Below, one piece after another: positions 2,707-3,411 of a stretch of 9,560 nt of DNA. The stretch lies in the IMG/VR virus record IMGVR_UViG_3300029070_000029; one strand, written 5' to 3'. Within the stretch, counting starts at the first letter, position 1. Every line of letters begins with the position of its first letter. The notes under the pieces are model-generated. The model made no database searches and had not been told where the DNA came from. It was given only the letters and a program-made list of their open reading frames with translations. The translations under genes and the position numbers were made by a program. Source of the stretch: a virus (taxonomy: Duplodnaviria > Heunggongvirae > Uroviricota > Caudoviricetes).

Positions 2707-3411
2707 ATGGCTACATCGACAGTAATTCCAGGAGACATCACCACGTTAAAGGGAGATGTCAGTAAAGCCAAGGAAGATATTTCCTCAATTAACGGAAAAG
2801 TATCAACGCTTCAGGCTGATATGACCAGTGCAAAGCAGGATATCAGCACCAGATACACAAAAACTGAAGTTGATAATAAGCTGAAAAACAAACTGGAAGT
2901 GAACGCTCTGGAAAGCGGTCGTTATGGTGGAGATTTTTACCCGTTGACTGGCCGTGAAGCGTTTTATTTGTGGGGATTGGGCACGACTACAGCGGCGGCA
3001 AACCTTTATCTTAATCCTGACCCCGCAATTTCGTCTGTGCTGCGGTCAACATCGTCTATCCGCTATAAACATTCAGTAGAGACAATAGATTCAGAGCACG
3101 CCGATCTCATTTTCAGGATGCGCCCTGTGTGGTACAGGTCACAATGCGAAAATGACAGGCGTGACTGGGGATTCTACGGATTGATTGCCGAGGAAGTAGG
3201 AGAAATTGCCCCTCAGTTTGTACACTGGCGACCAGCTAACGAAGATGATGCACCGGAAGCTATTTCCAGCAATGGCCTTGTTGCCGAAGGTGTAATGTAC
3301 GAACGTCTGGTTGTTCCACTGATTCACCATATCCAGAAGCTGACTGAAAGAGTTGATGAACTTGAGTCAGAATTAAAGTTGTTATCCGTTTCCCGAAGCG
3401 ATATCGGATAA
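2707..3411 (+). CDS. Tail-fibre-like protein: N-terminal coiled-coil/fibre repeats plus C-terminal intramolecular chaperone (peptidase S74-like) domain
   Basis: Track ORF of 234 aa with GAGGGA at 2696-2701 upstream of ATG 2707. The N-terminal ~65 aa show ~14-residue repeats (LKGDVSKAKEDISS / INGKVSTLQADMTS / AKQDISTRYTKTEV). The C-terminal half carries motifs I associate with the endosialidase/T5 pb1 chaperone domain: S116-x4-K121 (SSIRYK), LIFRMRPVWY, GLIAEEVGEIAPQFV. Confidence 0.65.
   Translation: MATSTVIPGDITTLKGDVSKAKEDISSINGKVSTLQADMTSAKQDISTRYTKTEVDNKLKNKLEVNALESGRYGGDFYPLTGREAFYLWGLGTTTAAANLYLNPDPAISSVLRSTSSIRYKHSVETIDSEHADLIFRMRPVWYRSQCENDRRDWGFYGLIAEEVGEIAPQFVHWRPANEDDAPEAISSNGLVAEGVMYERLVVPLIHHIQKLTERVDELESELKLLSVSRSDIG

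What the first reader, a model, noticed from the sequence alone, without database searches (positions are those of the whole stretch)
2707..3411. Mini-fibre with peptidase-S74-like intramolecular chaperone domain but almost no fibre body
The C-terminal half carries a Ser/Lys dyad arrangement (S116...K121), LIFRMRPVWY and GLIAEEVGEIAPQFV, which resemble the self-cleaving chaperone domain of endosialidases and the T5 L-shaped fibre. The N-terminal part is only ~65 aa of coiled-coil-like 14-residue repeats plus a short linker. It could be the remnant of a recombined fibre, a second short fibre, or a chaperone domain working in trans on the adjacent Stf, which has no S74 domain of its own.
Basis: partly seen in the sequence, partly recalled or inferred. 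Interest (0 to 1): 0.55.

Follow-up and report, generated by a model that had tools for sequence, protein, structure and literature searches.

The report
Self-cleaving mini side-fibre of prophage
This 234-residue gene in an E. coli lambda-like prophage is most likely a very short tail-fibre subunit that carries its own self-cleaving folding domain and plugs into the main side fibre; it belongs to a widespread gene set annotated only by domain, so it is fairly ordinary.

Summary
ORF 2707-3411 matches Pfam Peptidase_S74 above its curated cut-off at residues 116-172. S116 and K121 are invariant in 25 homologues, and the modelled C-terminal half resembles solved intramolecular-chaperone domains.

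The gene is intact and maintained. It has its own ribosome-binding site, dN/dS of about 0.15, and copies in 723 of 5,426 complete E. coli genomes and in cultured phages.

It is the third gene of a portable module: a side fibre with a lectin-like head, then a ~93-aa protein, then an S74 protein. The module occurs in lambda-like, T1-like, T5-like, Seuratvirus and Dhillonvirus phages. Third genes share an N-terminal motif (consensus M-[A/V]-T-x-T-x-I-P-x-D-I) and, in the seven loci where the protein was examined, an S74 domain. Their body length varies: 115 residues before the catalytic serine here, 207-470 elsewhere.

Against phage 2G7b, similarity stops 44 nt into this gene and resumes at the next gene, while the Stf genes stay 89% identical. 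The chaperone domain therefore travels with its own body, not with Stf. A T5-like homologue was found in virion preparations by mass spectrometry.

Best reading (confidence 0.6): a minimal, self-processing second fibre subunit that docks by its N-terminus. A chaperone acting in trans on Stf, or a dead remnant, is less likely. This is a new member of a known kind, of moderate interest.

The parts
2707..3411 (+). Whole gene: 234-aa short fibre subunit with a C-terminal S74 intramolecular-chaperone domain. The stop codon is 3409-3411.
   Evidence: ORF and translation. Pfam S74 above the curated cut-off. phrog_3299, E = 1.5e-140. dN/dS 0.147 against PhiR49_1.
2696..2702 (+). Shine-Dalgarno sequence GAGGGAG, 4 nt before the ATG. 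It overlaps the TGA stop of the upstream 93-aa gene.
   Evidence: Read directly from the sequence. No promoter-like or terminator-like site lies between the four genes.
2707..2739 (+). N-terminal motif MATSTVIPGDI (consensus M-[A/V]-T-x-T-x-I-P-x-D-I), proposed as the docking segment.
   Evidence: M1, T3, T5, I7, P8, D10 and I11 are invariant among third-position genes of five loci. The DNA pattern is found once, at the third-gene start, in each of the nine siphovirus or prophage loci fetched. SIA3lw ORF44 starts MVTKTVIPTDI. Similarity to 2G7b ends at 2750.
2737..2901 (+). Heptad-repeat (coiled-coil) stalk, residues 11-65.
   Evidence: AlphaFold2 helices at 11-47 and 52-60. Hydrophobic residues at 12 of 16 a/d positions in one register. 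Homologues differ here by several insertions and deletions, including 7- and 11-residue ones. Weak matches to coiled-coil families and to the P22 gp26 needle.
2902..3051 (+). Conserved tip segment, residues 66-115. It would be the last part of the mature chain before the predicted cleavage site.
   Evidence: dN/dS 0.045. Conserved with T1-like copies and with the ends of long one-piece fibres. Low-confidence in the monomer model.
3052..3069 (+). Predicted catalytic dyad S116...K121 (S-S-I-R-Y-K). Cleavage is predicted just before S116.
   Evidence: S116 and K121 are invariant in 25 sequences. The Pfam profile starts at S116. The motif aligns with S-G-I-E-Y-K of DT57C LtfA. The cleavage position is inferred from what is known of endosialidase and T5 pb1.
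3052..3408 (+). S74 intramolecular-chaperone domain, residues 116-234, ending in a long helix (198-233).
   Evidence: Pfam match. Model block pLDDT about 71-94. Foldseek matches to 7dc3, 3gud and 3gw6.
32..2416 (+). Context: side tail fibre Stf. It has a phage_tail_N anchor, an Ala-rich repeat shaft and a lectin-like head, and no S74 domain. RefSeq starts the identical gene at window position 38.
   Evidence: Pfam and NCBIfam. Head 44-61% identical to fibres of KarlJaspers, SIA3lw and EmilHeitz. The EmilHeitz head is described as lectin-like and seen by cryo-EM (PMC12143355).
2416..2697 (+). Context: 93-aa protein that always follows this type of fibre head. It is a candidate head-specific assembly factor or adaptor.
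   Evidence: phrog_1361. Homologues in 181 phage records. Alignment. 53% identical to the KarlJaspers copy. No name in any source.
3422..3715 (+). Context: 97-aa predicted membrane protein. It is not part of the portable module.
   Evidence: phrog_1443. 97-98% identical in lambda-like loci whatever the third gene. Absent from the T1-like locus.

Best explanation
The gene encodes the shortest known allele of a second subunit of a two-part side tail fibre.

**Proposed steps (all inferred)**
1. It is made from the late operon together with Stf and the 93-aa protein.
2. Three chains are brought into register by their C-terminal S74 domains (residues 116-234). These template folding of the conserved tip (66-115) and the heptad stalk (11-65) of the same chains.
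3. The S116/K121 dyad then cuts just before S116. This releases a 13.8-kDa chaperone fragment and leaves a 12.4-kDa mature chain (1-115) as a stable trimer.
4. The mature trimer docks through its N-terminal motif (consensus M-[A/V]-T-x-T-x-I-P-x-D-I) onto the lectin-headed Stf, directly or through the 93-aa protein. It adds a short extra tip or branch.

**Shown here**
- S74 family membership and the conserved dyad.
- Purifying selection on the whole ORF.
- The conserved three-gene module.
- The shared N-terminal motif combined with a swappable body.
- Virion presence of a longer homologue.

**Not shown**
- Trimerisation, self-cleavage, docking, and any receptor binding by the tip.
For: **S74 domain**
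- The Pfam match is above the curated cut-off.
- The Ser/Lys dyad is invariant.
- The model's best fold matches are intramolecular-chaperone domains.

**A real, maintained gene**
- It has its own Shine-Dalgarno sequence and ATG.
- dN/dS is 0.147 overall, 0.167 for residues 1-115 and 0.045 for 66-115.
- The region is at least 80% covered in 723 of 5,426 complete E. coli genomes.
- Copies occur in the cultured temperate phages PhiR49_1, PhiR55_1 and IdasGreatGrand and in about 40 T1-like phages.

**A conserved module**
- The order Stf head, then ~93-aa gene, then S74 gene is seen in lambda-like, Drexlerviridae, Seuratvirus, Dhillonvirus and T5-like phages.
- Pairwise identities to the KarlJaspers copies are 44%, 53% and 60%.

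**Conserved start, variable body (the usual pattern of a docking fibre subunit)**
- The N-terminal motif is conserved.
- The length before the catalytic serine is 115, about 207, about 226 or 470 residues.

**The chaperone domain goes with its own body, not with Stf**
- Against 2G7b, identity is 89% over window 1-2750, absent over 2751-3420, and 98% from 3421.
- The two third-gene proteins are only 23% identical.

**Other support**
- Residues 50-234 are 55-56% identical to the C-terminal ends of long one-piece fibres that carry phage_tail_N or Gp34_trimer domains. This places the segment before the catalytic serine at a fibre end.
- SIA3lw ORF44 has the same N-terminal motif and the same gene order, and its Stf-like fibre is 61% identical. 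It was identified in phage preparations by SDS-PAGE and mass spectrometry, with 20 peptides and 46% coverage (PMC12752171).
- There is a precedent for a second S74-bearing fibre protein carried on the first: DT57C LtfB on LtfA (PMC4728585, PMC10713586).
Against: - No direct evidence exists for this 234-aa allele: no virion proteomics, no cleavage assay, no structure of a complex.
- Residues 62-115 are low-confidence in the monomer model.
- A mature chain of 115 residues, half of it coiled coil, leaves little room for a receptor-binding domain. The strong conservation of 66-115 is also unlike a typical fast-evolving adhesin.
- The N-terminal motif is not homologous to the LtfB or phiEco32 gp15 docking segment, so docking is argued by analogy only.
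- Some T1-like copies are split by a frameshift, for example orkinos. The gene is therefore dispensable on K-12, unless these are sequencing errors.
- The depositors of the BASEL phages annotated the homologues as 'putative lateral tail fiber chaperone'.
Confidence: 0.6

Rival explanations
1. Separately encoded chaperone: the S74 protein acts in trans to trimerise or fold the adjacent Stf, which lacks an S74 domain. It is not itself a functional virion component.
For: - Stf has no S74 domain.
- The gene always sits next to this fibre type in siphoviruses.
- The mature part is tiny.
- The BASEL phage records annotate the homologues as a putative lateral tail fibre chaperone.
Against: - Nearly identical Stf genes (89% at the DNA level) pair with unrelated S74 alleles (23% protein identity), so there is no co-variation with the supposed client.
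- A Stf-like fibre 61% identical to this one pairs with a 580-aa allele in SIA3lw.
- A homologous head (48% identity) with its small-protein homologue exists in EmilHeitz. No motif-bearing gene lies in the 9.2 kb fetched, and that head was seen by cryo-EM.
- The 93-aa protein is the component that always travels with the head.
- Residues 1-115 are under purifying selection, and the SIA3lw homologue is found in virion preparations.
- No match to known Tfa-type chaperone families.
Confidence: 0.12
2. Remnant: the ORF is left-over 3' sequence of an older one-piece Stf that a recombined cassette displaced, and it has no present function.
For: - Residues 50-234 are 55-56% identical to the C-termini of long Stf-type fibres.
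- phrog_3299 aligns the ORF to the last 238 positions of a 1,385-position profile.
- Truncated tfa fragments lie downstream in related prophages, showing recombination debris in this region.
Against: - The gene has its own Shine-Dalgarno sequence and ATG.
- Its N-terminal motif and heptad stalk are absent from the long fibres, whose homology starts at about residue 37-50.
- dN/dS is 0.15.
- Clusters of 2,928 and 650 member sequences of full or near-full length exist.
- Intact copies occur in compact virulent genomes of several families.
Confidence: 0.06
3. Structural plug without a receptor function: the mature 115-residue trimer occupies the docking site on the Stf head only to stabilise or complete the fibre. 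Longer alleles supply the actual second adhesin.
For: - The body is very short, and the tip is highly conserved rather than diversified.
- The same docking motif is used by alleles with large, variable bodies.
Against: - The same tip ends long one-piece fibres, where it is the distal extremity.
- EmilHeitz carries the head with no motif-bearing gene in the 9.2 kb fetched.
- This is a sub-case of the best explanation and cannot be separated from it with the present data.
Confidence: 0.2

Closest known systems
C-terminal intramolecular chaperone domains of the phage K1F endosialidase, the T5 L-shaped fibre pb1 and GA-1 gp12 (Pfam PF13884, MEROPS S74)
   Same: - Profile match above the curated cut-off.
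- A Ser-x4-Lys dyad at the start of the domain.
- A similar fold with a terminal long helix.
- C-terminal position after a fibre segment.
   Different: - The segment it would fold is only 115 residues, shorter than the 119-residue chaperone itself. The classical cases have hundreds of residues.
- By sequence, a PDB search reaches only DT57C LtfA and the MyRF domain, not the endosialidase or pb1.
DT57C LtfA/LtfB two-protein lateral tail fibre (with phiEco32 gp14/gp15)
   Same: A second fibre protein, encoded after the first, has its own S74 domain. Genetic evidence and sequence analysis suggest that it is carried on the first fibre through its extreme N-terminus (PMC4728585, PMC10713586).
   Different: - The LtfB N-terminus is unrelated to the motif found here.
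- LtfA itself has an S74 domain, whereas this Stf ends in a lectin-like head.
- A 93-aa gene sits between the two fibre genes here.
- LtfB is about 790 aa, against 234 aa here.
[quoted passage not shown]
   Same: - Same N-terminal motif (MVTKTVIPTDITKLK).
- Same gene order after a fibre 61% identical to this Stf and a 91-aa homologue.
- An S74 domain.
- Detected in phage preparations by mass spectrometry.
   Different: It is 580 aa, with about 470 residues before the catalytic serine. The body is unrelated.
BASEL phage proteins annotated 'putative lateral tail fiber chaperone' (KarlJaspers bas06_0035, PeterMerian, KurtStettler bas22_0024), and fibre class TC7 of the RBPseg atlas
   Same: - KarlJaspers bas06_0035 is 60% identical over the full length and sits in the same module.
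- TC7 is described as an N-terminal coiled coil plus a C-terminal S74 domain (PMC12143355).
   Different: - These are annotations or predictions only. I found no experiments in the searched library.
- I did not verify which proteins make up TC7.
MyRF ICA domain (eukaryotic, PDB 7dc3)
   Same: It is the best structural match of the model (E = 2.5e-5) and a weak sequence match.
   Different: It belongs to a eukaryotic membrane-bound transcription factor. It shares only the domain, not the biological context.

Membership tests
Peptidase S74 / intramolecular chaperone auto-processing domain (Pfam PF13884) | Profile match above the curated threshold | tested here: met
   27.3 bits against a cut-off of 22, residues 116-172, profile positions 1-57 of 58. 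The longer third-gene alleles score 47-55 bits.
Peptidase S74 / intramolecular chaperone auto-processing domain (Pfam PF13884) | Catalytic Ser and Lys five residues apart at the start of the domain | tested here: met
   S116 and K121 are invariant in 25 homologues down to 28% identity. They align with S-G-I-E-Y-K of DT57C LtfA.
Peptidase S74 / intramolecular chaperone auto-processing domain (Pfam PF13884) | Fold of the solved chaperone domains, including the terminal long helix | tested here: met
   The model has block pLDDT of about 71-94 over 116-234 and a helix at 198-233. Foldseek matches: 7dc3 probability 1.00, 3gud 0.98, 3gw6 0.66. Target-normalised TM-scores are 0.50-0.59 for 7dc3 and 3gud and about 0.3 for 3gw6. 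This is a monomer model, so the match is moderate.
Peptidase S74 / intramolecular chaperone auto-processing domain (Pfam PF13884) | Located at the C-terminus, directly after a trimeric fibre segment | tested here: inconclusive
   It is C-terminal and preceded by a heptad stalk and a conserved tip. The trimeric state could not be modelled with the tools available.
Peptidase S74 / intramolecular chaperone auto-processing domain (Pfam PF13884) | Self-cleavage at the catalytic serine after trimer folding | not testable with these tools
   This needs expression and a gel or mass-spectrometry assay. The predicted products are 12.4 and 13.8 kDa from a 26.1-kDa precursor.
Two-protein lateral tail fibre of the DT57C LtfA/LtfB type | A second fibre gene with its own S74 domain, encoded downstream of the first fibre gene | tested here: met
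   Gene order Stf, 93-aa gene, S74 gene. The same order is seen in nine loci.
Two-protein lateral tail fibre of the DT57C LtfA/LtfB type | N-terminal docking segment homologous to LtfB / phiEco32 gp15 | tested here: not met
   The LtfB N-terminus (MSRPLMPKSGAMAPYVVVN...) shows no resemblance to MATSTVIPGDI. The DNA motif is absent from the DT57C locus.
Two-protein lateral tail fibre of the DT57C LtfA/LtfB type | The second protein is present in virions, attached through the first fibre | not testable with these tools
   There is only indirect support: the homologue SIA3lw ORF44 was found in phage preparations by mass spectrometry. No data exist for this allele or for its attachment site.
Separate tail fibre assembly chaperones (lambda Tfa / T4 gp38 type) | Sequence membership in a known Tfa or assembly-chaperone family | tested here: not met
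   No such family appears among the Pfam, NCBIfam or PHROG matches.
Separate tail fibre assembly chaperones (lambda Tfa / T4 gp38 type) | Co-variation with the fibre tip it serves | tested here: not met
   Stf is 89% identical at the DNA level to that of 2G7b, while the third genes are unrelated apart from the first 44 nt.

The most novel reading that the evidence does not exclude
The S74 domain works between molecules. The mini-protein would be a detached 'intramolecular' chaperone that templates trimerisation of the lectin-headed Stf, or of the Stf-93-aa complex, through its N-terminal motif. It would then cut itself off and leave only a 115-residue cap. That would be the first S74 chaperone shown to act in trans.
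Probability: 0.1. Interest if true: 0.7.

Novelty: new member of a known kind. Interest (0 to 1): 0.38.

Why it matters
If the model is right, one short N-terminal motif defines a common socket on lectin-headed side fibres of lambda-like, T1-like, T5-like, Seuratvirus and Dhillonvirus phages. Bodies of 115 to about 470 residues, each with its own self-cleaving chaperone, can be plugged into that socket.

- **Engineering:** this would be a ready-made, portable two-part receptor-binding system for host-range engineering.
- **Model system:** the 234-aa allele would be the smallest natural substrate for studying how an S74 chaperone folds a trimer, since the 119-residue chaperone is larger than its 115-residue product.
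- **Annotation:** it would correct the database label 'lateral tail fiber chaperone'.

In itself, the presence of an S74 domain in a prophage tail-fibre gene is ordinary.

Tried and rejected
- **PDB by sequence:** a single-sequence search and a profile search reached only DT57C LtfA and, weakly, MyRF. They did not reach the endosialidase or T5 pb1. Fold comparison was needed.
- **Literature:** searches for experiments on this protein, on T1-like 'lateral tail fiber chaperones', or on S74 domains acting in trans found none.
- **Homology to the DT57C LtfB docking segment:** tested and rejected.
- **The 93-aa protein:** the homologue search listed only near-identical unnamed E. coli proteins. That is too shallow for a useful structure prediction, so its role stays open.
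- **Monomer AlphaFold2:** it gave no usable model for residues 62-115. No multimer modelling tool was available.
- **Read-through fusion of the 93-aa ORF and this ORF:** they are in the same frame, separated by TGA plus 9 nt. I set this aside because KarlJaspers has them in different frames.
- **Promoter and terminator scan:** nothing lies between the four genes.

Full report
**Setting**

The window is the right end of a lambda-like E. coli prophage, followed by chromosomal or cargo genes. On the + strand lie four tightly packed genes:
- a side tail fibre Stf (32-2416, 794 aa);
- a 93-aa ORF (2416-2697);
- the ORF in question (2707-3411, 234 aa);
- a 97-aa predicted membrane protein (3422-3715).

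After these come sitDCBA on the minus strand and an icd-like fragment. The first 3.8 kb of the window (positions 1-3791) is 99.9% identical to a prophage of E. coli S88. RefSeq calls the target there a 'tail fiber domain-containing protein'.

Yes.
- Pfam Peptidase_S74 matches residues 116-172, covering almost the whole profile, at 27.3 bits against a curated cut-off of 22.
- S116 and K121 sit in S-S-I-R-Y-K. They are invariant in an alignment of 25 homologues that fall to 28% identity.
- An AlphaFold2 model is confident for residues 116-234 and predicts a terminal helix at 198-233.
- The model's best PDB matches are the MyRF ICA domain, the GA-1 chaperone and the endosialidase chaperone.
- By sequence, the only clear PDB relative is the C-terminus of DT57C LtfA. 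Its S-G-I-E-Y-K aligns with the dyad.
- The N-terminal part is helical and has one clean heptad register from I11, with hydrophobic residues at 12 of 16 core positions. The '14-residue repeat' is a double heptad.
- Stf itself has phage_tail_N, an Ala-rich shaft and a head that matches NCBIfam 'GTA spike fiber'. It has no S74 domain.

**Is it a live gene?**

- A GAGGGAG Shine-Dalgarno sequence lies 4 nt before the ATG. No promoter-like or terminator-like site separates the four genes.
- Against the copy in the cultured phage PhiR49_1, dN/dS is 0.147 overall, 0.167 for the predicted mature part and 0.045 for residues 66-115. The counts are small: 24 synonymous and 13 non-synonymous differences.
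- The region is at least 80% covered in 723 of 5,426 complete E. coli genomes.
- Protein clusters of full or near-full length hold 2,928 and 650 member sequences.
- Full-length homologues occur in four temperate phage records (three distinct phages) and about 40 T1-like virulent phages.

**What is around it elsewhere?**

The order Stf-type fibre, then ~93-aa protein, then S74 protein recurs in several phage groups:
- lambda-like phages PhiR49_1, 2G7b and PhiR47_1;
- Drexlerviridae KarlJaspers and orkinos;
- Seuratvirus KurtStettler;
- Dhillonvirus 'rolling';
- the T5-like Salmonella phage SIA3lw.

The three KarlJaspers proteins are 44%, 53% and 60% identical to those of the window. The SIA3lw fibre is 61% identical to Stf over 720 residues.

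In all nine siphovirus or prophage loci fetched, the third gene begins with the motif M-[A/V]-T-x-T-x-I-P-x-D-I. The degenerate DNA pattern for this motif hits each locus once, at exactly that position.

The third gene carries an S74 domain in all seven loci where its protein was examined (window, KarlJaspers, 2G7b, KurtStettler, PhiR47_1, orkinos, SIA3lw). It was not examined for 'rolling', whose copy runs off the end of the record. The length before the catalytic serine differs widely:
- 115 residues here;
- about 207 in KurtStettler;
- about 226 in 2G7b and PhiR47_1;
- 470 in SIA3lw.

**The decisive comparison**

Against 2G7b, DNA identity is 89% from window position 1 to 2750. That span covers all of Stf, the 93-aa gene and the first 44 nt of the third gene. 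Identity then disappears until 3420, and returns at 98% from 3421, the start of the fourth gene. The two third-gene proteins are only 23% identical.

So the body and its S74 domain are exchanged together as a cassette, between a conserved 5' stub and the next gene, while Stf stays the same. This is how the exchangeable distal parts of fibres behave. It is the opposite of what a chaperone dedicated to Stf should do.

**Where the body comes from**

Residues from about 37-50 to 234 are 55-56% identical to the C-terminal ends of long one-piece fibres. These carry phage_tail_N, Phage_fiber_2 or Gp34_trimer domains. This also explains the PHROG match to the end of a 1,385-position profile. The first ~36-49 residues, the motif plus most of the stalk, are absent from those long fibres.

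The gene is therefore a mosaic of a third-gene docking head joined to a generic 'fibre end plus chaperone' module.

**Experimental anchors from the literature**

- SIA3lw ORF44 was identified in phage preparations by gel and mass spectrometry, with 20 peptides and 46% coverage (PMC12752171). Whether that band was the cleaved form cannot be judged from the paper.
- DT57C shows genetically that a second S74-bearing fibre protein (LtfB) can be carried on the first (LtfA) through its N-terminus (PMC4728585, PMC10713586). However, the LtfB N-terminus is unrelated to the motif here.
- The rV5-like phage EmilHeitz has a head 48% identical to this Stf head, plus a homologue of the small protein. It has no motif-bearing gene in the 9.2 kb examined.
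- The RBPseg study reports that head as lectin-like and confirmed by cryo-EM (PMC12143355). That argues the head does not need this S74 protein to fold.
- The same study describes a fibre class (TC7) with an N-terminal coiled coil and a C-terminal S74 domain. I did not verify which proteins belong to it.
- I found no experiment on the 234-aa type in the searched library.

**Mechanism proposed**

All steps are inferred except family membership.
1. The S74 domains trimerise.
2. They template the tip (66-115) and stalk (11-65) of their own chains.
3. S116/K121 cut just before S116, as established for the endosialidase and T5 pb1 (my own knowledge of those systems). This gives 12.4-kDa and 13.8-kDa fragments.
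4. The mature trimer docks by its N-terminal motif on the Stf head or on the 93-aa protein.

Whether the small, highly conserved tip binds a receptor or merely completes the fibre is open.

**Rivals**

- **Trans-acting chaperone for Stf (0.12).** This is disfavoured by the lack of co-variation, by the EmilHeitz case, by selection on residues 1-115 and by the virion homologue.
- **Dead remnant (0.06).** This is contradicted by the ribosome-binding site, the conserved motif, the dN/dS value and the gene's presence in compact virulent genomes.
- **Plug without receptor function (0.2).** This is a sub-case of the main model and cannot be separated from it at present.

**Verdict**

The gene is a new, minimal member of a known kind, the S74-matured fibre subunits. 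It sits in a conserved three-gene module that, as far as I could find, has not been described as such. Interest is moderate (0.38). The domain call is routine. The shared docking motif and the product being smaller than its chaperone are the notable points.

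Noticed in passing
window 2416-2697 and 2707-3411: The 93-aa ORF and the target ORF are in the same reading frame, separated only by TGA plus 9 nt. The same is true in PhiR49_1, 2G7b, PhiR47_1 and KurtStettler, but not in KarlJaspers. This is probably an inherited junction rather than read-through.
   Followed up: partly
window 2416-2697: The 93-aa protein has homologues in 181 phage records, including T5-like and rV5-like phages. In every locus inspected it lies directly after a fibre gene, and where compared that fibre has this lectin-like head. 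It has no name in any source. It is the better candidate for the head's own assembly factor or adaptor.
   Followed up: partly
window 3422-3715: A 97-aa predicted membrane protein (phrog_1443) stays 97-98% identical across lambda-like loci whatever the third gene is. It is absent from the T1-like locus. It may be a prophage accessory (moron) gene.
   Followed up: no
window 3807-7256 (minus strand) and 8184-8336: The iron/manganese transporter genes sitDCBA begin about 90 nt after the last prophage gene. A fragment matching the C-terminus of isocitrate dehydrogenase lies at 8184-8336, and RefSeq annotates iraM among the genes of the matching region. This fits a prophage at the icd site that carries or abuts sit.
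   Followed up: partly
L005 5001-6533 (phage KurtStettler): The third gene here is 510 aa. The S74 domain lies at residues 208-259 and is followed by about 250 residues of Gly-rich and Cys-rich sequence ending in CC. Sequence after an S74 domain is unusual.
   Followed up: no
L007 3501-4239 (phage orkinos): The T1-like copy is split into 86-aa and 168-aa ORFs by a frameshift at ...GSFYP/LTG. Several other T1-like records also match in two pieces. Either the gene is dispensable on E. coli K-12 or these are sequencing errors.
   Followed up: partly
window 1-20: A strong terminator-like hairpin (GCCCGCC...GGCGGGC followed by a T run) lies just upstream of the Stf start, after the position where related prophages have the lom gene.
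   Followed up: no
window 572-1009: The Ala/Ser/Thr-rich shaft of Stf contains an internal duplication of about 250 nt. The segments 572-820 and 761-1009 match each other's counterparts in related loci at about 83% identity.
   Followed up: no
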